A DNA stretch of 32,000 nucleotides, from assembly GCF_008831045.1 (NCBI RefSeq), contig NZ_WAJS01000006.1, positions 5,513 to 37,512 of the forward strand, written 5' to 3'. The notes under the pieces are model-generated. The model saw nothing but the letters and a program-made list of their open reading frames with translations, did no database searches and was not told where the DNA came from. The DNA is from Adlercreutzia muris. GTDB taxonomy: Bacteria; Actinomycetota; Coriobacteriia; Coriobacteriales; Eggerthellaceae. This document shows, in pieces, positions 1,358 through 16,779 of this stretch. The position numbers and the translations under genes were made by a program. Within the stretch, counting starts at the first letter, position 1; each line of letters begins with the position of its first letter.

Positions 1358-1435
1358 TGCGGGGTGGAGCAGTCTGGTCAGCTCGTCGGGCTCATAACCC
1401 GAAGGTCGTCGGTTCAAATCCGGCCCCCGCGACCA
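1358..1435 (+). tRNA. tRNA-Met (anticodon CAT), initiator type, CCA encoded
   Basis: Cloverleaf read by hand: acceptor TGCGGGG/CCCCGCG, D arm GAGC..GCTC, anticodon loop CTCATAA, T arm GTCGG-TTCAAAT-CCGGC, then A73-CCA. Three consecutive G:C pairs (GGG/CCC) close the anticodon stem, the initiator hallmark. The sequence is near-identical to the E. coli tRNA-fMet body as I recall it. Confidence 0.9.
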
Positions 1436-1445
1436 AGAATTGTCG

Positions 1446-1473
1446 GCCGCCGAGTTCGCTCGGCGGCTTTTTT
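1446..1473 (+). terminator. rho-independent terminator after the tRNA
   Basis: GCCGCCGAG-TTCG-CTCGGCGGC (9-bp perfect stem) followed by TTTTTT. Confidence 0.8.
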
Positions 1474-1568
1474 GTTAGAGCGTAGGCGTTGCGATGGGCA
1501 TGGGGGAGACATTCTGGCCGGGGCTTAGTTGGGCATAGCAGTAGGTACTCTCACTGCAAGGAGCCCTC

Positions 1569-2537
1569 ATGAGCGACATCGAGATCTACGAATCACCCGA
1601 TGGCGAGATTCGCCTGAATGTCCAGCTTGAAGACGAGACCGTTTGGCTGACCCAACGACAGATGTCTGCTCTTTTCGGACGTGATAAGTCAACCATCTCA
1701 AGGCATATTCAGAGTGTGTTTGATGACGGCGAGCTTGAAGCCGATTCAACTGTTGCAAATTTTGCAACAGTTCAAATCGAGGGCGGTCGTGAGGTCGAAC
1801 GCATTGTTGAGCACTACAATCTCGACATGATAATCTCTGTCGGCTATCGGGTAAAATCCCAGCAAGGTGTTGCCTTTCGTCAATGGGCGACCAAGATTCT
1901 CAAGGAGTACGCCGTTAAAGGATTTGCGCTTGATGATCGTCGACTCAAAGATGGTCGTAGTCGCTATTTCCGCGAGTTGCTTCAGCGCGTGCGCGACATT
2001 CGCTCCAGCGAACGCAATCTTTATCAGCAAGTGACGGACATTTACGCCACGGCGATTGACTACGATCCCAAAGCGTCCATCACTCGCACGTTCTTCGCAA
2101 CGGTGCAGAACAAGCTGCACTATGCGGCTCATGAGCACACGGCGGCTGAAGTTATTTACGAACGCGTTGATCGCGATAAGCCGCTGGTGGGCATGACCAC
2201 GTTCGACGGCGACTACGTGACGCGGGCTGACGTTCGCATCGCCAAAAACTATCTCACCGAAAAAGAGTTGCAAACGCTCAACCTGCTCGTGTCCCGTTTT
2301 CTCGATTACGCGGAATTGCAAGCGTTGGAAGAGCGCACCATGACCATGCAGGACTGGATTGAGGAGCTCGACCGAGAGATCATCAACTCGCGGCGCGCGT
2401 TGCTCGAAGGCAAGGGGCTCGTATCGCACAAGCAGGCCATTCAGAAGGCGGAAGCAGAATTTGAGGCGTACCGTGCCCGCGAGATGCGCGAACTGGAGAG
2501 CGATTTCGATCGTGCCATCAAGCAACTAGAGGGGTAG
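1569..2537 (+). CDS. RhuM-family (virulence-associated) protein
   Basis: AAGGAG Shine-Dalgarno. The N-terminus (IEIYESPDGEIRLNVQLEDETVWLTQRQMSALFGRDKSTISRHI...) and the core (MIISVGYRVKSQQGVAFRQWATKILKEY) match the conserved RhuM-family signature from memory. Confidence 0.75.
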   Translation: MSDIEIYESPDGEIRLNVQLEDETVWLTQRQMSALFGRDKSTISRHIQSVFDDGELEADSTVANFATVQIEGGREVERIVEHYNLDMIISVGYRVKSQQGVAFRQWATKILKEYAVKGFALDDRRLKDGRSRYFRELLQRVRDIRSSERNLYQQVTDIYATAIDYDPKASITRTFFATVQNKLHYAAHEHTAAEVIYERVDRDKPLVGMTTFDGDYVTRADVRIAKNYLTEKELQTLNLLVSRFLDYAELQALEERTMTMQDWIEELDREIINSRRALLEGKGLVSHKQAIQKAEAEFEAYRAREMRELESDFDRAIKQLEG

Positions 2538-2767
2538 CGGCCCATCGTTCGTTCGAGAGCCTGTATCGGCTGAACTCACGAGCCAGGGGGCTCGGGACAA
2601 GTTTTGGACGCGTTGAGACATTTGTTCCGGAGATTTCCGCGAAGTCCCCCTCCTCATCCTGTGCCGCCGCCTAAGCCGTGTGGTTGGGAGATGTTCCTGT
2701 TCGGCTTCCTGTTGTTCGTATCGACTTAATATGGGAAGATATTCAGCGTAAACGGACAAAAGGGGTG

Positions 2768-3358
2768 ATGGGCGTGCAAGCTATCGTCGACTTGGCGGAA
2801 TCGAACGGCGGTCTGGTGACGACGGCGCAGGTTGTGGGCGCTGGGATTCCCCGAGCGCGAATCTCGGACATGGTGAAGACGGGCGATCTTGAGCGTGTGC
2901 AGCGCGGTGTCTACTGTTTGGCAGGCGCATGGGAAGACGAATTCCTTGCCACCCAACTCCGTTTCCCCAAAGGCATCCTCTCGGACGGAACTGCGCTCTA
3001 TCTCCACGGTTACGCCGATCGCGTGCCGTTTCAACTCACGATGACCTTCCCGCGCTCGTACGGGGCGACCAAGGCGCGCGAGGCGGGCATCGAGGTGCGC
3101 ACGTGTGCGGATGAGGTGCTCGGTCTGGGACTCACGGCGATCAGGACCCCGTACGGTAACGAGGTGAGCGCCTACGATCTGGAGCGCACGCTCTGCGACA
3201 TCGTCCGGGGACGTCGTGTCGTTGACGTGCAGGTGGTCAATCCGGCGATGAAGCAGTACGCCCGCAGCGGGGGGAAGGACGTTCAGAAGCTGCTGGATTA
3301 CGCGCAAGCACTCGGTGTAGAGAAAAAGATACGCAACTACTTGGAGGTGCTGCTGTGA
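2768..3358 (+). CDS. abiEi: AbiEi-family antitoxin/transcriptional regulator (type IV TA, abortive infection AbiE)
   Basis: Start taken at ATG 2768 (AAAGGGG Shine-Dalgarno). The N-terminal wHTH motif is GGLVTTAQVVGAGIPRARISDMVKTGDLERVQRGVYCL. The stop overlaps the next gene's start as GTGA. A paralogous decayed copy lies at 7558-8145. Confidence 0.8.
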   Translation: MGVQAIVDLAESNGGLVTTAQVVGAGIPRARISDMVKTGDLERVQRGVYCLAGAWEDEFLATQLRFPKGILSDGTALYLHGYADRVPFQLTMTFPRSYGATKAREAGIEVRTCADEVLGLGLTAIRTPYGNEVSAYDLERTLCDIVRGRRVVDVQVVNPAMKQYARSGGKDVQKLLDYAQALGVEKKIRNYLEVLL

Positions 3359-4200
3359 GGACCAAAAATGCAATGCAGCTCAAGGCTATTATTGGCAATC
3401 GCGCCAAGGAGAGCGGGGTACCGCCGCAGTTGGTGATGCAGAACTATCTGCTCGAGAGGTTGCTCGAGCGGATATCTCTCTCATTGTGGCGGAACAAGGT
3501 CGTCGTCAAGGGAGGCATGCTCATCAGCTCGCTGGTGGGGGTTGATAGGCGAAGTACCAAGGACCTCGACGCGACAGTTCGCGGCTTCCCGCTTACCCAC
3601 GAGAGCGCAGAGAGGGCATTCCGCGAGATTGCGGCTGTAGAGGCTGATGACGACTTTTCGTTTGAGTTCGTCCGCACTGAGGATATTCGCGAGGCCGACG
3701 ACTACCCAGGTATACGCGTGCACCTATTGGCCAGCTATGACAAGATGCGTTCGCCTGTCACCGTCGATGTGACTACAGGAGACAAAATTACGCCCGATGC
3801 TGTTGAGTACAGCTACCCACTCATGTTTGACAACCGCTCGCTCTCGCTCATGGCCTACCCGCTCCCTACTACGCTGGCGGAAAAGCTGGAGACGGTTGTG
3901 AGCCGCGGTATCGCGAACACGCGGCCGCGCGACTACTACGACCTGCGCACGCTCTGGCTCACAAGGAAGGCGGAGGTGGAACTGGGTGTGCTCCGGGATG
4001 CCCTTGCGGCTACGTCTGAGAAGCGCGGCTCATTTGGCGGGATGGGTCGCTACCGTGAGGTGATGGCTGAGGTAACTTCTGACGCTGTCATGCAGGATCG
4101 ATGGACGGCGTATGCCCATAGGTATCCGTATGTTGGAAGCATGACCCTCGCTGAGGCGTGCGAGACAGTTGTGGCGATCATGGAGGATATCAGCTGGTAG
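3355..4200 (+). CDS. abiEii: AbiEii/AbiGii-family nucleotidyltransferase toxin (DUF1814)
   Basis: GTG start overlaps the abiEi stop. The N-terminus is NAMQLKAIIGNRAKESGVPPQLVMQNYLLERLLERIS...KGGMLISS...RSTKDLD, typical of AbiEii. The same GTGA junction and N-terminus are conserved in the decayed copy at 7561. Confidence 0.8.
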   Translation: MRTKNAMQLKAIIGNRAKESGVPPQLVMQNYLLERLLERISLSLWRNKVVVKGGMLISSLVGVDRRSTKDLDATVRGFPLTHESAERAFREIAAVEADDDFSFEFVRTEDIREADDYPGIRVHLLASYDKMRSPVTVDVTTGDKITPDAVEYSYPLMFDNRSLSLMAYPLPTTLAEKLETVVSRGIANTRPRDYYDLRTLWLTRKAEVELGVLRDALAATSEKRGSFGGMGRYREVMAEVTSDAVMQDRWTAYAHRYPYVGSMTLAEACETVVAIMEDISW

Positions 4201-4285
4201 GCGCGCTTGCGAATTTGCAGACACCCCCACCGCAGTGACGCGGCACGGAGGCGATGCAACGCGGATCCAAGGTATGGGAAGGAAC

Positions 4286-4756
4286 TTACTTCACCACGGC
4301 GAGGTTCACGCTGGCGAGCAGGCCGGGGATGCTGCGCACGGCGGAGCGGTTCCATTCCTTGGCGCGGTCGGGTAGCTCCTCCCAGGGCACCAGGTAGGGG
4401 CTGCGCTTATGCTCCACGTCCTTGGAAGAACCGTAGCGCCAGCCGGCCTTCTGCCGCTCGCGCAGCCAACGGCGATGCTCCAGAATAGCGAGGCACTCCA
4501 CTTCGCTGGCCGTGAAGGCGGCCACGCAGCGATCGGGATAGCAGCTGCCGGCGGGGAGCACCTCGTAGCCGAGGGTGTCCAGCTTGCGGTGGATGCTGCT
4601 GATGTAGGCGATGGATGAATCGCGCAGGTCGGCAGGAAGGCTGGCAAAAGTGGCGAACTCCTGGTCGGCCTGGGAGGCGATGCGGTCGGCGGTATAGCGC
4701 TGGAACGAGGTGTGCGCCAGCTCGGTGATGACGTCGGTTTTGCCCGCTAATGTCAT
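4286..4756 (-). CDS. RyR (ryanodine-receptor-type) domain protein, two half-repeats
   Basis: The C-terminal half is ECLAILEHRRWLRERQKAGWRYGSSKDVEHKRSPYLVPWEELPDRAKEWNRSAVRSIPGLL, which fits the bacterial RyR (PF02026-like) consensus EH.RW...GW.YG...D...K..P.LVPW.EL....K..NR. The N-terminal half shows the related LP..LR.S.I..I..I..KL..LGY motif. Confidence 0.7.
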   Translation of the reverse strand: MTLAGKTDVITELAHTSFQRYTADRIASQADQEFATFASLPADLRDSSIAYISSIHRKLDTLGYEVLPAGSCYPDRCVAAFTASEVECLAILEHRRWLRERQKAGWRYGSSKDVEHKRSPYLVPWEELPDRAKEWNRSAVRSIPGLLASVNLAVVK

Positions 4757-4921
4757 CGTACTTTCTATTGCAAATGAGTTTTGACGGAGCGCTCTCGGCC
4801 TGATGACTGGTGAAATATTGCTTGGCGGCTTTTACCAAGCCTCCTTTGGTTCATAGATCGATACCCATATTTTCATTAAGGTTATGCAAGGATGCTAAGT
4901 GTTTCGTTTGTCTACTGAGCG

Positions 4922-6253
4922 TCACAGAGCGATTCCATCCTTGACGAGGAGTTCGCGGAGTACATGCGGCGGTGTGGAGGGATTTGAGGCAACGCCTATT
5001 TGTGTCCATGTGTCCAGAGAAAGCTCTTGGAGCACATCTTGCGGTGTGGAAGAATTCCTAGCGATGCATGGGCGTACGCGCCCCTCGCAATCACGTGACA
5101 GTTCGCGGAGCACATCCTGCGGAGCATGGGAGTTACATGCTACGCATCTGCGTACTGGCTCTTCGCTGTCGTGTGAGAGACTTCGGAGCACGTCCTGTGG
5201 TGCCGAGGAACTTCTGGCGGGTATACACCGCATTAGCAGGTCCTCGTCAAGCGAGAGTTCGCGGAGTAGATCGGAGGTAGCAGAAATCTTCTCCGCTGCA
5301 TGCAAGCGTACTTCTCTGAAGCGGTCGCGCATGAGATCCCGAAGTATGTCCCCTGATGCGTTTGGATTATCGGCGACGGCTCTCCGCACGTCCAGTTCAT
5401 TATCTTGGACGAGTATCTGAAGCAGTTCCTGCGGTGCGGAGGGGTTGCGCGCGACGTTACACCGCACGCGCTCGTCGACATCGCGATGCAAAAGGCGGAG
5501 CACGTCCTGGGGTGTGGTGGGATTGCACGCCAGGCTTCCACGTACTTCGGTGTCGCGAGAGAGCTCCCGGAGAACGTCCTGCGGCGCGGAGGGGTTGCGC
5601 GCGACGTTGATCCTCACTCTTTCGTCGACATCACGGTATAAAAGGCGAAATACGTCCTGCGGCGCAGATGGGTTTTCGCCGATACCCATGCGCACCCATT
5701 CGTCGCTATCACGCGCGAGCTCTCGCAGCACATCCTGGGGTGTGGAGGGATTCTGCGCGACTCCCGTGCGTACCAGATCCTCGTTGTCGTGAGAGAGTTC
5801 GCGAAGTATGTCTTCCGGTGCCGATAGGTTTTTTGCTACAGCCCATCGCACATCTGTGGTGCAATCGCTTGAGAGCTCACGGAGGATGTCCGGTGGGGTG
5901 GACGGGCTTTCGGCGATAGATGCGCGAGGCATCCAATCGCAATCGCGTGAGAGTTCACCAAGTAGATCTATTGAGGCAGAGTTGTTGCGAGTCACCGATT
6001 TTCGTACGTAGTGATCACTATCATGAGCAAGCTCCCAGAGTACCTCTTGTGGTGTATTGCGGTTTATAGCGATTCTCGTCCGCACCCCAGCGTTCCGGTC
6101 GTGTGAGAGTTCTCGGAGCGTATCCTCCGGTGTGTTGCGGTTTCCAGCGACGTTTTTCCGCACCTCTTCGTCCCAGTCGTGCGAGAGCGCCCGCAGTATG
6201 TCCTGCGGTGCATTGGGGTTCTGGGCAATTCCGTTTCGTAAATGGTGGTCCAT
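4922..6253 (-). CDS. alpha-solenoid repeat protein, about 17 tandem 26-aa LRV/HEAT-like repeats
   Basis: The ORF was trimmed to ATG 6253 (MDHHLRNGIAQNP..., GAGAGG Shine-Dalgarno). The repeat consensus is VRxxVAxNPSAPQDVLRELSRDxDxx, iterated from the N- to the C-terminus with a 78-nt DNA period. It resembles the leucine-rich-repeat-variant motif. Confidence 0.75.
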   Translation of the reverse strand: MDHHLRNGIAQNPNAPQDILRALSHDWDEEVRKNVAGNRNTPEDTLRELSHDRNAGVRTRIAINRNTPQEVLWELAHDSDHYVRKSVTRNNSASIDLLGELSRDCDWMPRASIAESPSTPPDILRELSSDCTTDVRWAVAKNLSAPEDILRELSHDNEDLVRTGVAQNPSTPQDVLRELARDSDEWVRMGIGENPSAPQDVFRLLYRDVDERVRINVARNPSAPQDVLRELSRDTEVRGSLACNPTTPQDVLRLLHRDVDERVRCNVARNPSAPQELLQILVQDNELDVRRAVADNPNASGDILRDLMRDRFREVRLHAAEKISATSDLLRELSLDEDLLMRCIPARSSSAPQDVLRSLSHDSEEPVRRCVACNSHAPQDVLRELSRDCEGRVRPCIARNSSTPQDVLQELSLDTWTQIGVASNPSTPPHVLRELLVKDGIAL

Positions 6254-6387
6254 GATGCCCGCCTCTCTGCTGCCTGGGATGTGTGGTGAAATGGCGATTC
6301 GTATTATACAATCACAGGGGAACAATTGCATGACGCGAGAGGGCTCGTCGATGTCCTTTTGAGTAATAAGCAGTTGAGGAAAGGGGT

Positions 6388-6972
6388 TTGGCAGAGATGC
6401 TCGAATCACTGCTTGAGACAGGAGCTGCGCGGCTCTACTCCTGCCTTCGTCGTTGGAGAACTGAACGTCGAAGGCGATATTTGAGAAATGCAATATATTT
6501 TGAGACCTCAAGTGAGCAAAATACGAGAACCAAGAAAAGGATAACTCGACTCCTTAAACAGAAGAAGAATATGGTTGCCGAGGATGCGTTCGTTGTCACG
6601 GGAATGCATGTAAACGCTAGTAATCTAGTCTATGAAGCAGCAGTTCTACGCGCGTTTTTTAATAACAAAACTGATCGATTCACTTTTCTTGAATGTACGC
6701 GAATTTTAGCTCTCTATGAGCATACTCTAATTGCCGAATTCGTGAAGTCGATGGGTTCTCGTAAAGAGCCTATTGATGCACTCGCCTTTTCTGGATTATA
6801 TAAGATACGATACAAATCGGGCTATATCCGCACTCGCTATGACGAGTGGGACGATGAGGAAATATTTGAAGAGTACTCCGGAATTAAGTTTGTTGAGGGC
6901 TCTTCGCTATCTTTCTGCGTTAACGGAACCGGGAAAGAGCTTGCAAGGATTCTATCGGAAGTTGACGTTTGA
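6388..6972 (+). CDS. hypothetical protein in AT-rich DNA, no recognisable domain
   Basis: The ORF is open from TTG 6388, with alternative ATG starts at 6397 and 6571. Hand-counted GC is about 33-45% for lines 6541-6720, against about 70% at 12001-12060. It is divergent from the solenoid gene. Confidence 0.45.
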   Translation: MAEMLESLLETGAARLYSCLRRWRTERRRRYLRNAIYFETSSEQNTRTKKRITRLLKQKKNMVAEDAFVVTGMHVNASNLVYEAAVLRAFFNNKTDRFTFLECTRILALYEHTLIAEFVKSMGSRKEPIDALAFSGLYKIRYKSGYIRTRYDEWDDEEIFEEYSGIKFVEGSSLSFCVNGTGKELARILSEVDV

Positions 6973-7039: not shown

Positions 7040-7222
7040 ACTCGAACCGAGCAGGCCCAGACATTCGGCGCCCACGCCGGCGAAGAAGAGGATGCGGGTG
7101 TCTACCCAGTAGTCGACGGCTTTCGCCGCGGCCGAGCCCAGGGCGAAGCCCGCATCCATGGCGTTCACCTCGCGGGGGACCGCCCTGGCTTCTCGCTCGT
7201 GTTTGAAGCCGTAGTGGGGTGA
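7040..7222 (-). pseudogene. internal fragment of a DUF2148/ferredoxin-domain gene, paralog of 8375-8899
   Basis: The minus-strand translation HYGFKHEREARAVPREVNAMDAGFALGSAAAKAVDYWVDTRILFFAGVGAECLGLLGS aligns to the intact CGFATCGEKPASAPCEVNAVDVGIALGAAAAKAADYRVDTRIMFSAGVAAEHLGLLGE. Identity is 31/44 over the core by hand count. Both ends are missing and the Cys ligands are lost. Confidence 0.7.
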
Positions 7223-7226
7223 GGTG

Positions 7227-7561
7227 CTACCTCAAGTACGCCTTGATCACTCCCATAGCCTTCGTCACTGAATCGCAGGTTTCAGGGAATTCGATGCTGG
7301 CCGCATAGGAGTGTGTTTCCAGATATCTGGCCCATAACTTGGTAAGGCCTTCATCTTTTCGGACGGCGGAAAGCGTCTTTTCATAATCTGCGATGACATT
7401 CGCACCACCTCGTTTTTCATAGGTAGCAGCCAAAGCCTGCCCCAGTGTTTCGAGGTTGCATCGCATGCTTAACTTTGAAGCATGAGTTGGGGAGACACAT
7501 TTGCGTCGCGGGCCTTCTTTTTGATTATCGCTTTGAGCTGCATAGCATTGGTCGTTTTCAC
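7227..7561 (-). pseudogene. AbiEii toxin remnant with a large internal deletion
   Basis: The GTG at 7561 gives VKTTNAMQLKAIIKKKARDANVSPQLMLQS, then a stop. In another frame the C-terminal about 75 aa (ALAATYEKRGG...WARYLETHSYAASIEFPETCDSV) matches the tail of 3355-4200. About 175 codons, including the NTase core, are absent. Confidence 0.75.
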
Positions 7562-8145
7562 AGGAGCACCTCCACGTAAGTTCTGATTTTGTTACCCACA
7601 CCAAGTTGGGTAGCGTATTCAAGGAGCTTTGGGATATTTCGCTCGGGTGAGGCGAGGTACGCCTTTACGGCAGGGTTGAAGGTTTGTGTATTGACGACGG
7701 CTTGTCCGCGCACCATATCGCAAAGGGATCGCTCGGCGTCATAGAACTCTCACTCCATTGCCATAGGGGGTTACTGCCGTCGTTTCGCCAAGGGAATGCA
7801 GTTCCTTGCCAACGATTTTCGGAATGATGCCCTCGGTGGTCGCGGATGACAGGTTGTATCCTCGCGGGAAAGTCATGGTGATGCGCTCGGGGGCGCTTTC
7901 GGCGAGCCCCTGCAGGTACAGGGCGGTTTCGTGAGAGAGGATGCCGCGACCAAACCGATGCGAAGCTATGAGGCACTCATCTTCCCAGGCATCGGGGTGC
8001 AGTACAGGCTCCGCGATATGCGAAGCAGTTCCCCGTTTGAGGCCGACCTGGCCAAAGTTGCCCTGGGTATGCCTAAGGTGTCCACATCCGCTGAGGATAC
8101 GAACCCATTTTTTGCCAGGAGTATGTCTTCCACGGCTTGATTCAT
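7558..8145 (-). pseudogene. AbiEi antitoxin, frameshifted at least twice
   Basis: Three frames must be spliced to recover the homolog. They read MNQAVEDILLAKNGFVSSADVDTLGIPRATLARSASNGELLRISRSLYCTP (from ATG 8145), then DAWEDECLIASHRFGRGILSHETALYLQG...TPYGNGV, then FYDAERSLCDMVRGQAVVNTQTFNPAVKAYL...KIRTYVEVLL. The shifts lie near 7991-8000 (a C-run on the coding strand) and near 7745-7756. Confidence 0.75.
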
Positions 8146-8374
8146 GATGCGGTGTCCTTGTGAACGTATGATGCAATAATGCTACACTAAAAATTATATA
8201 CATAGCATAAATATATCAACAAGAGGGACACTGTATCGGCGCAATGCGAGCTTGGGCATTGGTGGCGAAGCAGCTTAGTGGTCCGGGATCTGAATGGGAG
8301 CGGGCATGGTAATCTAAGCGAATATTCGCGCGAAAAAGACGTATAGATTGCCATGAGCAATGGCGGGCGAGTTA

Positions 8375-8899
8375 CTACCCCCTATCGAACAGAGGGCTCT
8401 TGGAGCTGATGCTCACGGGGATGGCGTACACCTGCCCCACGTCCTCGCCCAGCAGGCCCAGGTGCTCGGCGGCCACGCCAGCGGAGAACATGATGCGAGT
8501 ATCTACGCGGTAGTCGGCGGCCTTCGCCGCTGCTGCGCCCAGAGCAATGCCTACGTCCACGGCGTTCACCTCACAGGGCGCAGACGCGGGTTTCTCGCCG
8601 CACGTGGCGAAGCCGCAGCGACCGCAGTTGAGGCCCTGCACCTTGGCGCGGGTGCCCACGAGCACCACGGCCAGGCTCTGGCGCACGCAGTCGGCGTCGC
8701 GCAGGAAGAACTTGTGGCCGCGCTCTTCGCCGATGGCCTCCATGGCGCAGGCGATGCGCTCCTGCTCGTCGCCGTCTGCAACGGCGCATTCCACGATGTC
8801 CACGCCCTTGCCCTTGGGGGCCGTCCGTGCCGCCACGCACATCTTCTGGGCAATGTCGAGGGCCTGGGCCTGACGCAGGTCGCGTTCGTTGTAGATCAA
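8375..8899 (-). CDS. DUF2148 / ferredoxin-domain-containing protein
   Basis: Conserved AARTAPKGKG...CGRCGFATCGE...NAVDVGIALGAAAAKAADYRVDTRIM. The start is uncertain. No in-frame ATG precedes the conserved N-terminus, so I used TTG 8899 behind GGAAAGGCAGGA. The long 5' extension to 9412 is Arg/Pro-rich junk. Confidence 0.65.
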   Translation of the reverse strand: MIYNERDLRQAQALDIAQKMCVAARTAPKGKGVDIVECAVADGDEQERIACAMEAIGEERGHKFFLRDADCVRQSLAVVLVGTRAKVQGLNCGRCGFATCGEKPASAPCEVNAVDVGIALGAAAAKAADYRVDTRIMFSAGVAAEHLGLLGEDVGQVYAIPVSISSKSPLFDRG

Positions 8900-9063
8900 G
8901 GGTTCCTGCCTTTCCAACTCTGAACATACGTTTTGAAGGGCGATTAGGCCACTTTGCAGGGCCCTTCGCTTTTTCCGATTGGCCTTTCGGCCAATGCATG
9001 GTTCAAGGTCCGCCAAGAATCTTACCGCATCTGCCCGCTGGGGGAGACCGGCTGACAGAGGCG

Positions 9064-9537
9064 CTACAGCGCTCCTGCGCGATAGGCTCGGATGGCGGCG
9101 AGGGTCGCATCGGCGAAGTGCTGGATGGCGTCCACTTGAACCCAGCGGCCGTCTTCCCGATAGCGCAGGGAATGCCCTCGGCTGCGGCCAACGCGCAGGT
9201 GCCCGATGGAGAGGGTCACGCTGCCGGGGATCTCCCGGGTTTCGACGTGGGTGCTGATGCTCGAGCCTCCCAGGGCCCAGGCGGCGAGGCCGGCGTCTGA
9301 AATGCTGCCTGTCTCCTGGTAGACGGCCAGGGCCGCCATGGCGCCGAAGCCGTCGTCCTTCTCCTCCGTCTGGTAAACGCGCCTCTCGGTGCGTCCCGGC
9401 AGGCCGGCGCACACGATGTGGGATTGCCTTGTGAAGTGGTAGCGCTCGCCGTTAACCGCGATTCCCCAGGTGAAAACCTCCCACGTGCCGGTTCCGTCCT
9501 TCGCCTGAAAACGTGCGAGTGCTTGCTGTGCGTCCAT
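9064..9537 (-). CDS. hypothetical protein (157 aa), no recognisable domain
   Basis: ATG 9537 is preceded by AAAGGACGG. The amino-acid composition looks natural. It lies directly downstream of, and on the same strand as, the 550-aa gene. Confidence 0.55.
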   Translation of the reverse strand: MDAQQALARFQAKDGTGTWEVFTWGIAVNGERYHFTRQSHIVCAGLPGRTERRVYQTEEKDDGFGAMAALAVYQETGSISDAGLAAWALGGSSISTHVETREIPGSVTLSIGHLRVGRSRGHSLRYREDGRWVQVDAIQHFADATLAAIRAYRAGAL

Positions 9538-9557
9538 GAATCCGTCCTTTCGGAATT

Positions 9558-9619
9558 GCGCCATGGCGCGATTATGGCGCGATTGGCGCGATTATGGCGC
9601 GATTGGCGCGATTTTCGCG
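9558..9619. repeat. iteron-like array: 5 x TGGCGCGAT with alternating 11/9-bp spacing, flanked by small palindromes
   Basis: Copies start at 9564, 9575, 9584, 9595 and 9604. That is a 20-bp unit ATTATGGCGCGATTGGCGCG about 2.5 times. There is a perfect 12-bp palindrome GCGCCATGGCGC at 9558-9569 and CGCGA-TTT-TCGCG at 9607-9619. Confidence 0.85.
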
Positions 9620-9628
9620 TTGCTGCTC

Positions 9629-11281
9629 CTACTTCAGGTAGCGGGTGGAATAGTTGTCGAGGTGCTTGCCGATGTGCGAGACGATGATGCGGCCGGTCTC
9701 TTCGTCGAAGGCGAAGTAGAGGCGCAGGCTGTTGGGGCTGGCGTCATCGTTTCCCTTCGCCAGGTGGGCCTCCGCGTTGATGGCGCGGCCCTGGTAGGTG
9801 TCCTGGTACTGGGTCATGAGCCGGCTGTCCTTGCGGGTCATCTTGCCCGCGCCGCGCTTTAGCTCGAAGGCCGATTGGGCGTTGAACTTCTTGGCGTAGT
9901 CGCCGGCATCGCGCGAGGCGAAAAGGGGGTGGGCGATGGCGCACAGGTCGTGCAGGGCGTTCCAGACCAACGCCGGCTCCGTGATGCAATCGCTCAGCGA
10001 CTGATAGGCGCGATCGGTGAAATCGACGCGATCGCCGTGGTGCGCGCAGAAGAGCCGAAGGATATCTTCATAGGGCAGCGGCCAGCAGTGCAGGTCGTCG
10101 GCGCTTTCTGTCTGCCGTCCCGCCCGGCTGAGCTGGCCCTCGAGGGTCGTCGCCTTCGCCTGGGCCAGATACAGCTCGCTTTCGAGCTCGTCGTTGCGGG
10201 CCTTCAGCTGGTCGTTCTCGTGGTGCAGCTCCTCCAGAAGATCGACGGCGACGGCCTTCTCCTCCTCGGCCGCCTCCGCCATGTCCAGGGCTTCCGAGAC
10301 GGACTCGTCCTTCACCTGCTTGGTGTGAATGAGCCAATCGCGGCGCCGTTTCACCCCGTCGGCCCGCAGCATGGTCTCGTAAAAGTGCACGTCCTGGGCC
10401 AGCGCCCGGCGCAGGATGCCGATGAAATCCTCCTCGCCCATGGCCTCGATGTCTCGGGCCGGGAAGAAGCGGTGGCGGCCCGCGTCGCCGGGCTCTTCCA
10501 CGCGTGGACGGCCGGCGTATACGCGTACGGTGCCATGACAGCAGCGAAAGGCCAGCTCGGGAATGCACGCGCGCATCTCCTGGGTGAATGCCCCGTCCTG
10601 GGAATAGCACACGAAGGCCGAGGGGCCCAAGGCCGCGGCCACCCGTTTCGGGTCTACGGCGAAGGAAGGTTCGTCGCTGCCGGGCTCGAAACGGGGGCTG
10701 ATGTAGACGAGGGGCGTCTCCCGCTCGCCATCGGCGATGAAGTTCCACAGATCTTTGAACTGCCCCACGTGCAGCAAGGTGGGCTCAAGGGACAAAGGCC
10801 GGCCCGAGGCGGTGCTGACGAGACGATCGTTTTCCAGAATGGTCCGGATGAAGCCAGGGAAAGTGAGCTCGGGCTCGGGCTGGCAGGGGCCGAGGAAGCC
10901 CGGCGTGTCGCCATAGGACAGGGCGACGGCCACCGAGCCCGCATCTACGGCCGTCCAGACGAAGGAGATCTCGGTCGTCCAGTGACGCGGGGCCGCACCG
11001 GGCTCCTCGGCGATCTCCTCGATGGTGAGGGCCCAGTGGTTCCCGCCGTCTTCCAGGCACAGCTCCGAACGGAAACGGACGGGGCGGCCTTCCTGGAAGG
11101 GCACGCGGCCTGTTCGCTTGAGGGCGCTCCAGAAGGCCGCTTCTCGGGGAAGGGCCGGGTACTTGCGCGTGGCCCACGCCCGCAGGCTGCACAGAAGGCT
11201 CCACAGGGCATCGTCGCCCTCATCCGTCGTGCGAATGTCGAAGGAGGTTTTGTAGAACATGGTCTTGTTCAGATCGTGCAT
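9629..11281 (-). CDS. large hypothetical protein (550 aa) with a central coiled coil; unknown family
   Basis: The ORF was trimmed to ATG 11281 (GAAGAGG Shine-Dalgarno; MHDLNKTMFYK...). The composition looks natural, whereas the 530-aa antisense ORF is G/V/L/R-rich shadow. Heptad-like acidic/Leu region at aa about 325-390 (nt about 10112-10309). No Walker A or nuclease motif seen. Confidence 0.65.
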   Translation of the reverse strand: MHDLNKTMFYKTSFDIRTTDEGDDALWSLLCSLRAWATRKYPALPREAAFWSALKRTGRVPFQEGRPVRFRSELCLEDGGNHWALTIEEIAEEPGAAPRHWTTEISFVWTAVDAGSVAVALSYGDTPGFLGPCQPEPELTFPGFIRTILENDRLVSTASGRPLSLEPTLLHVGQFKDLWNFIADGERETPLVYISPRFEPGSDEPSFAVDPKRVAAALGPSAFVCYSQDGAFTQEMRACIPELAFRCCHGTVRVYAGRPRVEEPGDAGRHRFFPARDIEAMGEEDFIGILRRALAQDVHFYETMLRADGVKRRRDWLIHTKQVKDESVSEALDMAEAAEEEKAVAVDLLEELHHENDQLKARNDELESELYLAQAKATTLEGQLSRAGRQTESADDLHCWPLPYEDILRLFCAHHGDRVDFTDRAYQSLSDCITEPALVWNALHDLCAIAHPLFASRDAGDYAKKFNAQSAFELKRGAGKMTRKDSRLMTQYQDTYQGRAINAEAHLAKGNDDASPNSLRLYFAFDEETGRIIVSHIGKHLDNYSTRYLK

Positions 11282-11615
11282 GGAAGCCTCTTCTCGGTGC
11301 GATCCCGTCGAGCAGTTACGATGATGGTTTCCATAATAATAGGACGGGGCCTGGGGTCTCAAGAGATTGTGGGCGAAGAGGTGTTTGCAGGTATGGCTGC
11401 GAAAGAGCCGAAGGGGGCCGGCGGCGGTATCAGGCGAATGGGCTGCCTGCGAGCGGGCCCCGCGTGAGGAGTGGCGCGGGGCTCGGGGAGGAAGGGCGGA
11501 AGGGGCCGGGTGGTCGGCTGAGCTGCGGGGTTCGCGCGGTGCCGCCAGTTGCCGGGGAGGTCACGGTTGGCGGCGCGCCGCCCCCGCGGCGGGCGGGGTC
11601 GGGTAGCATGGGGCC

Positions 11616-12356
11616 ATGACCGTATTTGAAGCCCGACATATCGGCGTGCAATACCAGCGCAACGGAGAGCCCTTCGCCCCTTTCTCGGACGTGAGCCTTA
11701 CCTTGGAGGGCGGCCGGATGTACAACCTCACCGGCCCGTCGGGGTCGGGGAAGTCTACGCTGCTGGCGGCCTGCGCCCTCATGCTGCCGCGCTCGGGCGG
11801 ATCCCTTGCCTTGAACGGCGTGCCCTTCGATCGCTTTCATCCCACCGAATGGCGCCGGCGTGTGTGCCTGGTGCCCCAGGCTTCGGCTTTGGTGCCGGGC
11901 ACCGTGCGGGACAATCTGCGGTTTCCCTGGACGCTGAAGGTGAATGCCGGCACGGAGCCGCCGAGCGATGAGTTCCTCGAGGAGCTGCTGGCCCTCGCGC
12001 AGCTTAACGGGGTGACCCTCGACCACAATGCGGCCCAGCTCTCGGGCGGCCAGCAGGCCCGGGTGGCGCTGCTGCGGGCCTTCGCCACGCGCCCGACCGT
12101 GATGCTGCTCGACGAGGTGGAGGCGGCCCTCGATGAGGAATCTGCCGTGGCGGTGAGCCGCCTGACCCGGGCGCTGCTGACCGGCGCCACCACCTGCCTG
12201 CGCATTCGCCACCGGGCCGACGACGGCTACGCCTGCGGAACGTTCACCTTGGCCGATGGCGCGATCAGCTACGAGGCCCATCCCGTGACTGCCGACAACG
12301 CCCCAGTGGCGGGGACGGGGGCCGCGGTCGGGATCCTGGAGGGGGCGAGCCGATGA
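11616..12356 (+). CDS. ABC transporter ATP-binding protein, FetA/YbbL-like
   Basis: Walker A GPSGSGKST, signature LSGGQQARV, Walker B LLDEVEAALD. The stop overlaps the permease start (ATGA). Confidence 0.8.
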   Translation: MTVFEARHIGVQYQRNGEPFAPFSDVSLTLEGGRMYNLTGPSGSGKSTLLAACALMLPRSGGSLALNGVPFDRFHPTEWRRRVCLVPQASALVPGTVRDNLRFPWTLKVNAGTEPPSDEFLEELLALAQLNGVTLDHNAAQLSGGQQARVALLRAFATRPTVMLLDEVEAALDEESAVAVSRLTRALLTGATTCLRIRHRADDGYACGTFTLADGAISYEAHPVTADNAPVAGTGAAVGILEGASR

Positions 12357-15627: not shown

Positions 15628-16779
15628 ATGTGCCAGAACCCCTTTACTCCAGCCTTTGGTGGTAAGCCTCAGCACTTTTTTGGTCGCCGATCTGAGCTTT
15701 CTCTGGTAGGAGACGCTTTGGATAACAGCCTTAGCCCCCATCGCGCTCTCTTCATTACAGGCAACCGCGGGTGCGGAAAAACGGCACTTCTTGAGCAGGT
15801 CTCCGAACTGGCCATAGCTCACAAATGGCTTGCTGTAGATGTTCATGCTGAAGATGCTCTCATGTCTGCCGTGAAAAAACTCGCCGGCGGTACCCAGCGA
15901 GAAGAAACGCGAAACGCGCAACCGGAAGCATTCGGCGTAACGTTGGGGGGAGTGTCCACGACGTTATCTACAAGCTTCACGGGCATCGACCTTTCCGATT
16001 TGATCCAAGAAAAGCTTGATGGATTGCGCTCGCCCAGGGGGATTCTCATTACAGTGGATGAAGCGCAAAAGATGTCGGAGCGCGATGCGGAGGGACTTTG
16101 CACGGGCGCTCAGATGGCCATGCGAAAAGGCTACGCAGTTATGCTCGTGCTGGCCGGTCTGCCCGAATCGAAAGAAAAAATAGCCACTTATCGTGGTTGC
16201 ACATTTATGGAGAGAGCTTTTGACATCAAACTTTCAAGCTTACTCATTGATGAGACCTACGATGCTTTTCGTGGATTACTGGCGCTGAGCACGAACTTGG
16301 TCGCTGACGAAGAGGCCATTGATCATATGGCCCGCTTCAGCTTAGGGTATCCCTACCTTATGCAGCTCATTGGGTTTTACGCTGTCGAAGTAGCTGGTGA
16401 CTGCCAAAAAGGACAGTGGGTATCTGTGGGGCCAGGAGACGTGGCGGTGGCTGAGATGACCGCCTATGCCGCCTATCGCGAAAATGTACTCAAGGCAGCT
16501 TTGCGGCCTGTGCGCAATGGGGTGCGGGGATATCTCCACACTATGGCATTGCTTCTTGATGCTGATGGACGCGCTGAAACGCGGAAGATTGCCGCAGCCT
16601 TGGAAAAGGAGCCGTCTCAGTGCACCATGATGCGCCAGCGACTTATTGACCGACGGCTTATTGTGGCGGATGGCCGCGGATTCGTTCGCTTTAACCTTCC
16701 CTATCTGGGTCAATATCTTCTTGAGGAAGAATTTGCTGACGAAAACGCTACGTCGACGCCAGGTGCATGGTTATTCTAG
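15628..16779 (+). CDS. AAA+ ATPase of the archaeal-ATPase (PF01637-like) type with a C-terminal wHTH
   Basis: NPFTPAFGGKPQHFFGRRSEL...FITGNRGCGKTALLEQV (Walker A), ILITVDEAQK (Walker B), and a C-terminal winged-helix-like segment (TRKIAAALEKEPSQCTMMRQRLIDRRLIV). Sampled lines are 37-52% GC, below the surroundings. Confidence 0.7.
   Translation: MCQNPFTPAFGGKPQHFFGRRSELSLVGDALDNSLSPHRALFITGNRGCGKTALLEQVSELAIAHKWLAVDVHAEDALMSAVKKLAGGTQREETRNAQPEAFGVTLGGVSTTLSTSFTGIDLSDLIQEKLDGLRSPRGILITVDEAQKMSERDAEGLCTGAQMAMRKGYAVMLVLAGLPESKEKIATYRGCTFMERAFDIKLSSLLIDETYDAFRGLLALSTNLVADEEAIDHMARFSLGYPYLMQLIGFYAVEVAGDCQKGQWVSVGPGDVAVAEMTAYAAYRENVLKAALRPVRNGVRGYLHTMALLLDADGRAETRKIAAALEKEPSQCTMMRQRLIDRRLIVADGRGFVRFNLPYLGQYLLEEEFADENATSTPGAWLF

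What the first reader, a model, noticed from the sequence alone, without database searches (positions are those of the whole stretch)
9064..11281. Two-gene cassette of unknown function: a 550-aa multidomain coiled-coil protein with a RelE/ParE-like tail, plus a 157-aa partner
The 550-aa protein has no motif I can place: no P-loop, no nuclease or HTH signature. It does have clear modularity:
- an N-terminal region of about 170 aa;
- a middle region of about 150 aa (…PLVYISPRF…GTVRVYAGRP…);
- a strongly heptad-like acidic coiled coil at aa about 325-390;
- a C-terminal domain ending AEAHLAKGNDDASPNSLRLYFAFDEETGRIIVSHIGKHLDNY.

That ending loosely recalls the H.L.G...R(I/L).Y..D.....I.I..IG.H core of RelE/ParE-fold toxins. 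A small co-oriented gene follows after a 91-bp spacer filled with an iteron-like array. A large sensor or scaffold with a toxin-like tail plus a small partner is a common layout for conflict systems. Every functional statement here is inference.
Basis: inference. Interest (0 to 1): 0.7.

Follow-up and report, generated by a model that had tools for sequence, protein, structure and literature searches.

The report
HEC-07 anti-phage gene, no partner
The 550-aa gene is a distant gut-actinobacterial member of HEC-07, a single-gene anti-phage family already described as carrying a RelE-like RNase domain, and the small gene next to it is an unrelated neighbour placed there by a lineage-specific rearrangement.

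Summary
On the minus strand there is a 550-aa ORF (9629-11281), a 91-bp spacer with five AATCGCGCC repeats, and a 157-aa ORF (9064-9537).

The large protein is not an orphan. It matches the PADLOC HEC-07 model end to end (E 6e-28). HEC-07 is a single-gene "Hma-embedded candidate" defence system (Payne et al., bioRxiv 2024). That preprint reports reduced phage plaquing and describes a RelE-like C-terminal domain.

A confident model of the C-terminal domain (pLDDT 92) gives almost only RelE, YoeB, HigB and HP0892 toxins as top PDB hits. By sequence this domain is homologous to the C-terminal domain of Menshen NsnC (37 of 41 family members hit NsnC models). It keeps a conserved His-Arg-His set (H506, R520, H540). 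No Pfam RelE/ParE family matches.

The "partner" idea fails:
- small157 is absent from 26 of 28 loci outside the window's own lineage, and is 2-3 kb away in the other two.
- It occurs in other genomes without HEC-07.
- It is frameshifted in one genome whose HEC-07 is identical.
- Its adjacency here results from recombination between two repeat arrays.

Verdict: a new, divergent member of a known kind. The tail call is right and the two-gene cassette is wrong.

The parts
9629..11281 (-). HEC-07-family gene, 550 aa plus stop. A single-polypeptide candidate anti-phage protein.
   Evidence: The ORF is shown. PADLOC HEC-07 model PDLC04161 matches at E 6e-28, covering aa 76-544 against profile positions 84-551 of 553. 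There are 93 full-length homologs.
11333..11362 (-). Sigma-70-like promoter match (TTGAGA-18-TATTAT) about 50 bp upstream of the HEC-07 ATG.
   Evidence: It is the only promoter-like site in 8900-11700, against 0.3 expected. This is a consensus match only, and function is not shown.
10862..11281 (-). N-terminal globular domain (aa 1-140), a beta-sheet packed with helices. Presumed sensor or regulatory head.
   Evidence: The model has pLDDT mostly above 90 here. Invariant residues are K40, W51, W83, E89, R99 and D125. The domain aligns to the tested P. aeruginosa HEC-07 by hhalign. Payne et al. call it AdoMetDC-like. My whole-model Foldseek search gave only weak Bet v1/START/TBP-like hits.
10367..10855 (-). 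Middle alpha/beta domain (aa 143-305), ending in the RRALAQDV motif.
   Evidence: The model is. Invariant or near-invariant residues are R187, G250, H270, R271 and R291-V298. Payne et al. call it thioredoxin-like without a CxxC motif; I did not test this independently.
10124..10363 (-). Eighty-residue continuous helix (aa 307-386), an acidic heptad coiled coil. Presumed oligomerisation stalk.
   Evidence: DSSP assigns helix 307-386. One heptad register holds, with 74% hydrophobic a/d positions.
9632..10072 (-). C-terminal RelE-like (BECR-fold) domain (aa 404-550), homologous to the Menshen NsnC C-terminal domain (PB-BECR1). Presumed RNase effector.
   Evidence: The domain model has pLDDT 92 and pTM 0.88. 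Foldseek top hits are RelE-family toxins. 37 of 41 family members hit NsnC model PDLC03899, best E 3e-13.
9764..9766 (-). Codon for H506, the first His of the candidate H-R-H catalytic set.
   Evidence: It is invariant in 66 sequences. The codon was read. The H-R-H triad is described for PB-BECR1 in PMC12065111.
9722..9724 (-). Codon for R520, the Arg of the candidate H-R-H set.
   Evidence: It is at least 90% conserved. The codon was read.
9662..9664 (-). Codon for H540, the second His. I infer that it corresponds to the conserved H543 noted for the tested HEC-07.
   Evidence: It is invariant. Payne et al. note H543. The codon was read.
9564..9613 (.). Tandem array of five AATCGCGCC units at alternating 9- and 11-bp spacing. 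It is a recombination junction and not part of the HEC-07 gene.
   Evidence: The array is shown by TRF and exceeds chance. The same array sits at other gene junctions in L001, L002, L003 and L027. The homology breakpoints fall inside it.
9064..9537 (-). small157, a conserved Eggerthellaceae hypothetical protein (157 aa). It is an adjacent gene, not a partner of HEC-07.
   Evidence: It has 77 homologs at 50-96% identity. No library matches it. It does not co-occur with HEC-07 outside close relatives.

Best explanation
The 550-aa gene is a divergent gut-Actinobacteria/Firmicutes member of the HEC-07 family, a stand-alone single-polypeptide anti-phage system.

Shown here:
- It matches the HEC-07 profile end to end.
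- It has the same four-part build: an N-terminal domain, an alpha/beta middle domain, a long coiled coil, and a C-terminal RelE-like BECR domain.
- The C-terminal domain is sequence-homologous to the effector domain of Menshen NsnC and keeps an invariant or near-invariant His506-Arg520-His540 set.
- The gene has no conserved neighbour and sits in variable, often defence-rich contexts.

Inferred:
- The two N-terminal domains act as the sensor or regulator.
- The coiled coil dimerises the protein.
- On phage infection the BECR domain is released or activated and cleaves RNA. By analogy with RelE, YoeB and YafQ the likely target is mRNA on the ribosome. This would shut down translation and abort the infection.
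- No separate antitoxin is needed, because inhibition is built into the same chain.

The small downstream gene and the repeat array are not part of the system.
For: - Family match: PADLOC HEC-07 PDLC04161 scores E 6e-28 over aa 76-544 against profile positions 84-551 of 553, and three other HEC-07 models also hit.
- Prior description: Payne et al. describe HEC-07 as a single-gene system with a RelE-like C-terminus and a conserved His, and report that 7 of 9 HEC systems, all but HEC-01 and HEC-09, reduced plaquing in E. coli.
- Link to the tested protein: hhalign of the family profile against the tested P. aeruginosa protein gives probability 95%, E 4e-8, over 262 colinear columns.
- Structure: the full-length model has pLDDT 89.9 with four modules. 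The C-terminal domain model has pLDDT 92, and RelE-family toxins fill the top Foldseek ranks.
- NsnC homology: 37 of 41 members hit NsnC models at their C-terminal end, best E 3e-13. PMC12065111 assigns NsnC-C to the BECR superfamily with an H-R-H triad.
- Conservation: H506 and H540 are invariant and R520 is at least 90% conserved in 66 sequences.
- No partner: no conserved neighbour in 23 genome loci or 5 further loci.
- Context: the neighbourhoods include McrBC/AbiTii and Dnd clusters. The window itself carries AbiE and RhuM/PDC-S05 close by, with PDC-S01 about 8 kb away on the other side.
- Swappable heads: the same coiled-coil plus BECR module is fused to other N-terminal regions, including Sel1 repeats, DUF6933 and NsnC-like bodies.
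Against: - The tested protein is only a remote homolog: 16% identity by hhalign and no BLASTP hit. Only its first 399 aa were available to me, so the C-terminal comparison with it is indirect.
- No Pfam RelE/ParE/YoeB/HigB/YafQ model matches any family member.
- RNase activity, the trigger, the target and an abortive-infection outcome have not been shown for any HEC-07. The preprint reports no HEC-07 mutants.
- I could not confirm the AdoMetDC-like or thioredoxin-like assignments.
- This copy is not embedded in an Hma system.
Confidence: 0.75

Rival explanations
1. One reading: a two-gene conflict cassette in which the 157-aa protein is the antitoxin, immunity protein or partner of a large toxin-tailed sensor.
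For: In this lineage the two genes are co-oriented and 91 bp apart with no terminator-like site between them. The arrangement is stable across several assemblies. RelE-type toxins usually come with a small antitoxin (established knowledge).
Against: - small157 is absent from 21 of 23 genome loci with HEC-07, including the 90% and 74% identical copies. It lies 2.3-3.2 kb away, behind other genes, in the other two. It is absent from 5 more HEC-07 loci.
- small157 homologs occur without HEC-07 in L024, L026 and L027.
- The adjacency here corresponds to a deletion between the two arrays seen in L002.
- L035 has an identical HEC-07 protein but a frameshifted small157.
- The tested HEC-07 was handled as a single-gene system.
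Confidence: 0.04
2. It is a true HEC-07-family defence protein, but the RelE-fold domain is not an RNase. It could act like ParE toxins, which share the fold but poison gyrase, or it could be only a binding module, with the effector activity elsewhere in the protein.
For: The RelE/ParE fold includes non-nuclease members (established knowledge). PfiT, from the PfiAT toxin-antitoxin complex, is among the top hits. The N-terminal and middle domains also carry invariant polar residues (K40, E89, R99, D125, H270, R271) that could form an active site.
Against: The invariant His, Arg and His lie on the strands of the BECR sheet. This matches the H-R-H triad proposed for PB-BECR1, which sits at positions comparable to the H-D-H triad of YafQ. 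RelE, YoeB, HigB and HP0892 RNases dominate the hits. The module is kept intact when the N-terminal heads are swapped.
Confidence: 0.12
3. It is not a defence gene but a housekeeping or stress-response RNA-processing factor of Eggerthellaceae.
For: The G+C content (about 65%) matches the host core. Some homologs sit among metabolic genes (L028, L032). There was no match in the plasmid collection.
Against: - The gene is patchily distributed. L027 has the same chromosomal backbone without it.
- Its position differs among close relatives.
- Homologs are scattered across Eggerthellaceae, Atopobiaceae, Oscillospiraceae, Ruminococcaceae and Lachnospiraceae.
- Several copies lie in defence islands.
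- A family member has reported anti-phage activity.
Confidence: 0.05

Closest known systems
HEC-07 (Hma-embedded candidate 07; Payne et al., bioRxiv 10.1101/2024.01.29.577857; PADLOC-DB v2 models PDLC04158-04161)
   Same: Both are single genes of about 550 aa. The window protein matches the HEC-07 profile end to end. The order of modules is the same, including a RelE-like C-terminal domain with a conserved His (H540 here, H543 in the tested protein). The N-terminal and middle domains align colinearly with the tested P. aeruginosa protein.
   Different: The window protein is only about 16% identical to the tested protein and BLASTP does not detect the relationship. It comes from gut Actinobacteria/Firmicutes rather than Pseudomonas. 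It is not embedded in an Hma system. It lies in a chromosomal hotspot between an ABC/UPF0014 transporter operon and DUF2148.
Menshen NsnC C-terminal domain (PB-BECR1; PMC12065111)
   Same: The C-terminal domains are homologous at the sequence level, and 37 of 41 family members hit NsnC models. Both have the BECR fold and the same candidate H-R-H catalytic set.
   Different: NsnC is about 300 aa, has an inactive-PIN-like N-terminal domain and works with NsnA (ParB-DUF262) and NsnB (ABC ATPase). Here there is no NsnA or NsnB. The N-terminal two-thirds is unrelated to NsnC, and a coiled coil is inserted.
Type II toxin-antitoxin RNases of the RelE superfamily (RelE, YoeB, YafQ, HigB, HP0892)
   Same: These toxins are the best structural matches for the C-terminal domain. 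A His near the C-terminal end of the last strand is conserved, as in YoeB, YafQ and HP0892 (the literature cited, plus my own knowledge).
   Different: Those toxins are proteins of about 85-110 aa neutralised by an adjacent antitoxin. Here the domain is about 150 aa with an insertion and is fused to about 400 aa of other domains. It has no cognate antitoxin gene and matches no Pfam RelE/ParE-type family.
Fused toxin-antitoxin defence proteins such as CapRel(SJ46) (analogy from my own knowledge, not tested here)
   Same: Both would be single polypeptides in which a toxin domain is held inactive by another part of the same chain and released by a phage cue.
   Different: The toxin type is different (a tRNA-pyrophosphorylating RelA/SpoT homolog there, a BECR RNase fold here), and so are the domain order and the sensor. 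There is no sequence or fold relationship.

Membership tests
HEC-07 (PADLOC / Payne et al. 2024) | Full-length match to the HEC-07 profile HMMs | tested here: met
   PDLC04161 scores E 6e-28 over aa 76-544 against positions 84-551 of 553. PDLC04160, 04159 and 04158 also hit.
HEC-07 (PADLOC / Payne et al. 2024) | Homology to the experimentally tested P. aeruginosa protein (WP_033943166.1) | tested here: met
   hhalign of the family profile against its first 399 aa gives probability 95%, E 3.9e-8 and 262 colinear columns. BLASTP alone finds nothing. The C-terminal 150 aa of the tested protein were not available to me.
HEC-07 (PADLOC / Payne et al. 2024) | Multidomain build ending in a RelE-like domain with a conserved catalytic-type His | tested here: met
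   RelE-family toxins are the top hits. H540 is invariant.
HEC-07 (PADLOC / Payne et al. 2024) | N-terminal AdoMetDC-like domain and middle thioredoxin-like domain | tested here: inconclusive
HEC-07 (PADLOC / Payne et al. 2024) | Single-gene system with no obligatory partner | tested here: met
   No neighbour is conserved beyond close relatives in 23 loci or in 5 further loci.
HEC-07 (PADLOC / Payne et al. 2024) | Embedded inside an Hma (helicase-methylase-ATPase) system (the discovery context, not strictly defining) | tested here: not met
   The flanking genes are an ABC/UPF0014 transporter operon on one side and small157 and DUF2148 on the other.
HEC-07 (PADLOC / Payne et al. 2024) | Protection against phage | not testable with these tools
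   Protection is reported only for the P. aeruginosa representative expressed in E. coli.
RelE/ParE superfamily (BECR fold) toxins | RelE-like alpha/beta fold with an antiparallel sheet | tested here: met
   Foldseek against the PDB returns RelE1/RelE2 (probability 0.94-0.95), E. coli RelE (target-normalised TM 0.52-0.57), YoeB, HigB and HP0892 (TM 0.57). E-values are only 5e-3 or weaker.
RelE/ParE superfamily (BECR fold) toxins | Sequence membership in a curated RelE/ParE/YoeB/HigB/YafQ/Gp49 family | tested here: not met
   None of 41 C-terminal domains hits any such Pfam family at E <= 1. The profile finds no RelE-family chain among PDB sequences.
RelE/ParE superfamily (BECR fold) toxins | Adjacent cognate antitoxin gene | tested here: not met
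   small157 does not co-occur with HEC-07, and no other conserved small neighbour exists.
RelE/ParE superfamily (BECR fold) toxins | Ribosome-dependent mRNA cleavage | not testable with these tools
   This needs biochemistry.
PB-BECR1 domain (Menshen NsnC-C) | Sequence match to the C-terminal part of NsnC models | tested here: met
   Window protein: PDLC03879 scores 5e-5 and PDLC03899 scores 1.7e-4, both at the C-terminal end of the profile. Family: 37 of 41, 31 of 41 and 29 of 41 members hit three NsnC models, best E 3e-13.
PB-BECR1 domain (Menshen NsnC-C) | Conserved H-R-H set | tested here: met
   H506 and H540 are invariant and R520 is at least 90% conserved. That they are spatially equivalent to the NsnC triad is inferred, not superposed.
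Menshen system (NsnABC) | NsnA (ParB-DUF262) and NsnB (ABC ATPase with DUF3696) encoded alongside | tested here: not met
   No DUF262 or DUF3696 gene is present. The neighbouring ABC ATPase (11616-12356) belongs to a UPF0014 permease operon that is also present where HEC-07 is absent.

The most novel reading that the evidence does not exclude
HEC-07 and Menshen NsnC may be two outlets of one polymorphic effector module: a coiled-coil stalk plus a PB-BECR1-type RNase domain that is repeatedly fused to interchangeable N-terminal heads. Heads seen here include the HEC-07 two-domain head, Sel1 repeats, DUF6933 and NsnC-like bodies. If so, the N-terminal head would replace the antitoxin of classical RelE systems as both inhibitor and phage sensor. 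This gut clade would then offer a compact, antitoxin-free model of how a RelE-type RNase is gated. Separately, in Adlercreutzia/Enterorhabdus the 9/11-bp AATCGCGCC arrays may act as recombination joints that shuffle single-gene cassettes (HEC-07, AlbA_2, small157, DUF2148) within one chromosomal hotspot.
Probability: 0.35. Interest if true: 0.5.

Novelty: new member of a known kind. Interest (0 to 1): 0.3.

Why it matters
The finding turns an apparent orphan "toxin-tailed scaffold plus partner" into a recognisable member of a known anti-phage family, and it removes a false two-gene model.

What this adds beyond the published description:
- It extends HEC-07 from Pseudomonas to human and mouse gut Eggerthellaceae and Clostridia.
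- It links the HEC-07 C-terminal domain by sequence to the Menshen NsnC effector domain.
- It gives a concrete set of residues to mutate (H506, R520, H540).
- It shows that the effector module is combined with different N-terminal heads.

The mechanism of HEC-07 has not been tested. These points therefore make it more testable, but none of them is surprising to a specialist in phage defence.

Tried and rejected
- Pfam, NCBIfam and PHROGs gave nothing useful for either protein.
- The profile of the C-terminal domain against PDB sequences gave only a chance-level hit. The profile of small157 against PDB sequences gave nothing.
- Whole-model Foldseek against the PDB was dominated by weak Bet v1/START-like matches to the N-terminal domain and hid the C-terminal signal. 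This was solved by modelling the C-terminal domain alone.
- BLASTP against the tested P. aeruginosa HEC-07 gave no hit. Only 399 of its 549 residues were recoverable from the supplement.
- An all-against-all comparison of ORFs within 5 kb of HEC-07 in 24 loci found no non-homologous but positionally conserved partner.
- tblastn against plasmids gave no match. tblastn against phages gave one unannotated 6.8-kb faecal contig at 24% identity, which is too weak to claim phage carriage.
- I considered and rejected a Menshen system, because NsnA and NsnB are absent.
- I considered and rejected the array as an iteron or operator belonging to a cassette, because the same array sits at different gene junctions in related genomes.
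Full report
**1. Observation**

Both genes lie on the minus strand. The large ORF runs 9629-11281 and gives 550 aa from the ATG (MHDLNK...). The frame is open upstream to a TTG at 11362, but homologs start at the same Met.

The small ORF is 9064-9537, 157 aa from the second in-frame ATG. That start has a Shine-Dalgarno-like AAAGGACGGA upstream. It also matches the length of the homologs and independent gene calls in other assemblies.

The 91-bp spacer holds five AATCGCGCC units at alternating 9- and 11-bp spacing. There are six copies in the window against about one expected, and no shuffle reaches six.

- a domain at aa 1-140;
- a domain at aa 143-305;
- one continuous helix at aa 307-386;
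- a disordered linker at aa 384-397;
- a domain at aa 404-550.

The helix keeps one heptad register over 80 residues, with 74% hydrophobic a/d positions against 39% overall, and it is acidic. Pfam and NCBIfam give only coiled-coil noise.

**2. What the large protein is**

PADLOC-DB gives a full-length match to HEC-07. Model PDLC04161 scores E 6e-28 over aa 76-544 against profile positions 84-551 of 553, and three other HEC-07 models also hit.

HEC-07 is one of nine "Hma-embedded candidate" systems of Payne et al. (bioRxiv 10.1101/2024.01.29.577857). The preprint states the following:
- It is treated as a single-gene system.
- It has an AdoMetDC-like N-terminal domain, a thioredoxin-like second domain without CxxC, and a C-terminal domain resembling the RelE-family toxin HP0892 with a conserved His543.
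- Seven of the nine systems, all but HEC-01 and HEC-09, reduced plaquing of E. coli phages.
- No HEC-07 mutants or biochemistry are reported.

The tested protein is from Pseudomonas aeruginosa NCTC13717, and its first 399 residues are in the supplement. BLASTP against the window protein finds nothing. The family profile aligns to it colinearly over both N-terminal domains, with probability 95%, E 4e-8, 262 columns and 16% identity. Shared motifs include APRxWxTEIGF against ARRDWITEVGV. The window protein is therefore a remote but genuine family member.

**3. The tail**

The C-terminal 153 residues were modelled alone (41 sequences, pLDDT 92, pTM 0.88) and searched against the PDB with Foldseek. 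The top ranks are almost entirely RelE-superfamily toxins:
- M. tuberculosis RelE2 and RelE1 (probability 0.94-0.95);
- E. coli RelE (target-normalised TM 0.52-0.57);
- T. thermophilus RelE, YoeB and HigB;
- HP0892 (TM 0.57).

Sequence evidence is stronger for a specific relative. 37 of 41 family members hit Menshen NsnC model PDLC03899 (best E 3e-13), and 31 and 29 hit two further NsnC models. The hits are always at the C-terminal end of those models. Li et al. (PMC12065111) name that NsnC domain PB-BECR1. They place it in the Barnase/EndoU/Colicin/RelE superfamily with YafQ as the nearest structure, and they propose an H-R-H catalytic triad.

In my alignment H506 and H540 are invariant and R520 is at least 90% conserved, together with Y522, G538 and a GxMTRKD motif. 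In contrast, none of the 41 domains hits any Pfam RelE/ParE/YoeB/HigB/YafQ model at E <= 1. The profile also finds no RelE chain among PDB sequences.

It is not membership in a curated RelE/ParE family.

**4. The supposed partner**

I fetched 23 genome loci encoding relatives at 97-30% identity. They come from Adlercreutzia, Enterorhabdus, Paraeggerthella, other Eggerthellaceae, Atopobiaceae, Oscillospiraceae/Ruminococcaceae and Lachnospiraceae. The window is evidently from an Adlercreutzia/Enterorhabdus genome.

The evidence against a partnership is as follows:
- tblastn finds small157 in only two of the 23 loci. In A. caecimuris it is 2.3 kb downstream, behind DUF2148 and an AlbA_2 gene. In A. 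mucosicola it is 3.2 kb downstream, behind a second DUF2148 copy. It is absent from the 90% and 74% identical loci and from all more distant ones.
- Five further metagenomic HEC-07 loci also lack it.
- small157 homologs at 58% identity sit in unrelated contexts without HEC-07. L027 has the same ABC/UPF0014 - DUF2148 - AlbA_2 - small157 backbone with no HEC-07 at all.
- An all-against-all comparison of flanking ORFs found no other conserved neighbour.
- The exact window arrangement is fixed in one lineage, with several NCBI assemblies and many metagenomes. One of these (L035, GCA_009927985.1) has a 1-bp insertion that frameshifts small157 after codon 79, while its HEC-07 protein is 100% identical. 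This is suggestive, but a homopolymer assembly error is not excluded.

small157 itself is a real and conserved gene, with 77 homologs at 50-96% identity. It has no match in Pfam, NCBIfam, PADLOC, PHROGs or PDB profiles. Its function remains unknown, and it is not part of this system.

**5. The array**

The same AATCGCGCC array occurs at different junctions in related genomes:
- between DUF2148 and AlbA_2 in L001 and L027 (8-9 copies);
- directly after the HEC-07 stop in L002 and L003;
- between DUF2148 and small157 in L002.

blastn shows that the homology breakpoints between the window and these loci fall inside the arrays. The window equals L002 with the roughly 3.1 kb between its two arrays removed. 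The HEC-07/small157 adjacency is therefore a recombination product. The array is a junction or recombination-prone repeat, not an iteron set of a cassette. No terminator-like site lies in the spacer, and a promoter-like site lies upstream of HEC-07. Co-transcription in this lineage is therefore possible but says nothing about function.

**6. Context and family structure**

The window carries several defence or candidate-defence genes:
- between tRNA-Met (1358-1435) and the HEC-07 gene: RhuM/PDC-S05, a complete AbiEi/AbiEii pair, and AbiE remnants lying between a full and a partial DUF2148 copy;
- on the other side of HEC-07, at 19052-20263: a PDC-S01 AAA_14/DUF4143 gene.

Diverged homologs lie next to McrBC plus AbiTii (L030), next to a Dnd cluster (L029), or alone among housekeeping genes (L028, L032).

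A full HMMER scan with the C-terminal profile finds 2,854 representatives at 50% clustering with E <= 1e-3, and 171 with E <= 1e-30. The domain is always at the extreme C-terminus. Most short hits are fragments. Several proteins, however, keep the coiled coil plus C-terminal module behind different N-terminal regions: Sel1 repeats (P0231), DUF6933 (P0242), NsnC-like bodies (P0297, P0304) or unannotated regions. This is the pattern of a conserved effector with exchangeable heads.

**7. Mechanism**

Shown:
- family membership;
- the four-part architecture;
- the BECR/RelE-like fold;
- homology to NsnC-C;
- the conserved H-R-H set;
- the absence of a partner;
- the variable, defence-rich context.

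Inferred:
- The N-terminal domains sense infection and hold the effector inactive.
- The coiled coil dimerises the protein.
- On activation the BECR domain cleaves RNA, probably ribosome-bound mRNA as for RelE, YoeB and YafQ, and this stops translation.

Rivals:
- a two-gene toxin-partner cassette (about 0.04);
- a non-nuclease use of the RelE fold (about 0.12);
- a housekeeping role (about 0.05).

**8. Novelty and verdict**

HEC-07 is already in PADLOC and in a preprint, and its RelE-like tail has been described. This copy is a divergent member from gut Actinobacteria. The additions here are:
- the sequence link to PB-BECR1 and Menshen;
- the conserved triad residues;
- the swappable heads;
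- the disproof of the partner;
- the array-mediated rearrangement.

The finding is a new member of a known kind, with interest about 0.3.

Noticed in passing
window 9564-9613; L001 10359-10438; L002 9670-9687 and 12819-12836; L003 9670-9718 and 11493-11510; L027 3383-3484: The AATCGCGCC array (alternating 9- and 11-bp units, so a 20-bp period of about two helical turns) varies from 2 to 9 copies. It sits at different gene junctions in related Adlercreutzia/Enterorhabdus genomes: DUF2148|AlbA_2, HEC-07|AlbA_2, DUF2148|small157 and HEC-07|small157. Homology breakpoints fall inside it. It may be a recombination joint for single-gene cassettes, or an operator.
   Followed up: partly
window 7047-7196 (-) versus 8375-8950 (-): A partial second copy of the 3' end of the DUF2148 gene (about 71-77% identity to DUF2148 genes in related loci) lies 1.2 kb beyond the full gene. 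Remnants of an AbiEi gene (7739-8203) and an AbiEii-like ORF (7227-7622) lie between the two copies. This looks like the scar of an insertion bounded by a duplicated target. In A. mucosicola (L002), HEC-07 itself is flanked by two DUF2148 copies.
   Followed up: partly
window 1358-6972: A lower-G+C stretch (47-59%, against about 65% for the host) lies next to tRNA-Met (1358-1435). It carries RhuM/PDC-S05 (1569-2537), a complete AbiEi/AbiEii pair (2678-4200), a RyR-domain protein (4286-4756, -) and a 529-aa leucine-rich-repeat-variant/HEAT protein (4922-6511, -). It is probably an integrated defence island.
   Followed up: partly
window 15628-16779 (+) and 19052-20263 (+): Two further candidate defence-type ATPases lie in lower-G+C patches. 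One is an AAA_16/STAND-like ATPase. The other is an AAA_14/DUF4143 protein that matches PADLOC PDC-S01 at E 7e-141. AAA_14/DUF4143 genes also flank the HEC-07 homolog in L030.
   Followed up: no
L035 5745-6216 (GCA_009927985.1): small157 carries a 1-bp homopolymer insertion (TTT to TTTT) that frameshifts it after codon 79, in a genome whose HEC-07 protein is identical to the window's. It is either a natural knockout or an assembly error.
   Followed up: partly
proteins P0231, P0242, P0259, P0257, P0297, P0304: The coiled coil plus BECR module of HEC-07 is found behind unrelated N-terminal regions: Sel1 repeats, DUF6933, NsnC-like bodies and unannotated regions. This suggests head-swapping within a larger polymorphic family that bridges HEC-07 and Menshen NsnC.
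   Followed up: partly
phage-collection record MT839861.1, 1056-2693 (-): A 6.8-kb unannotated 'Bacteriophage sp.' contig from human faeces encodes a full-length relative (24% identity, 97% coverage, E 2e-45). Whether the contig is really viral was not checked.
   Followed up: no
L001 10439-11926; L027 3504-4922; L038 2815-4275: A SLFN_AlbA_2-domain protein of about 470-495 aa occupies the slot between the array and small157 in genomes that keep the presumably ancestral order. It is missing from the window and truncated in L002.
   Followed up: no
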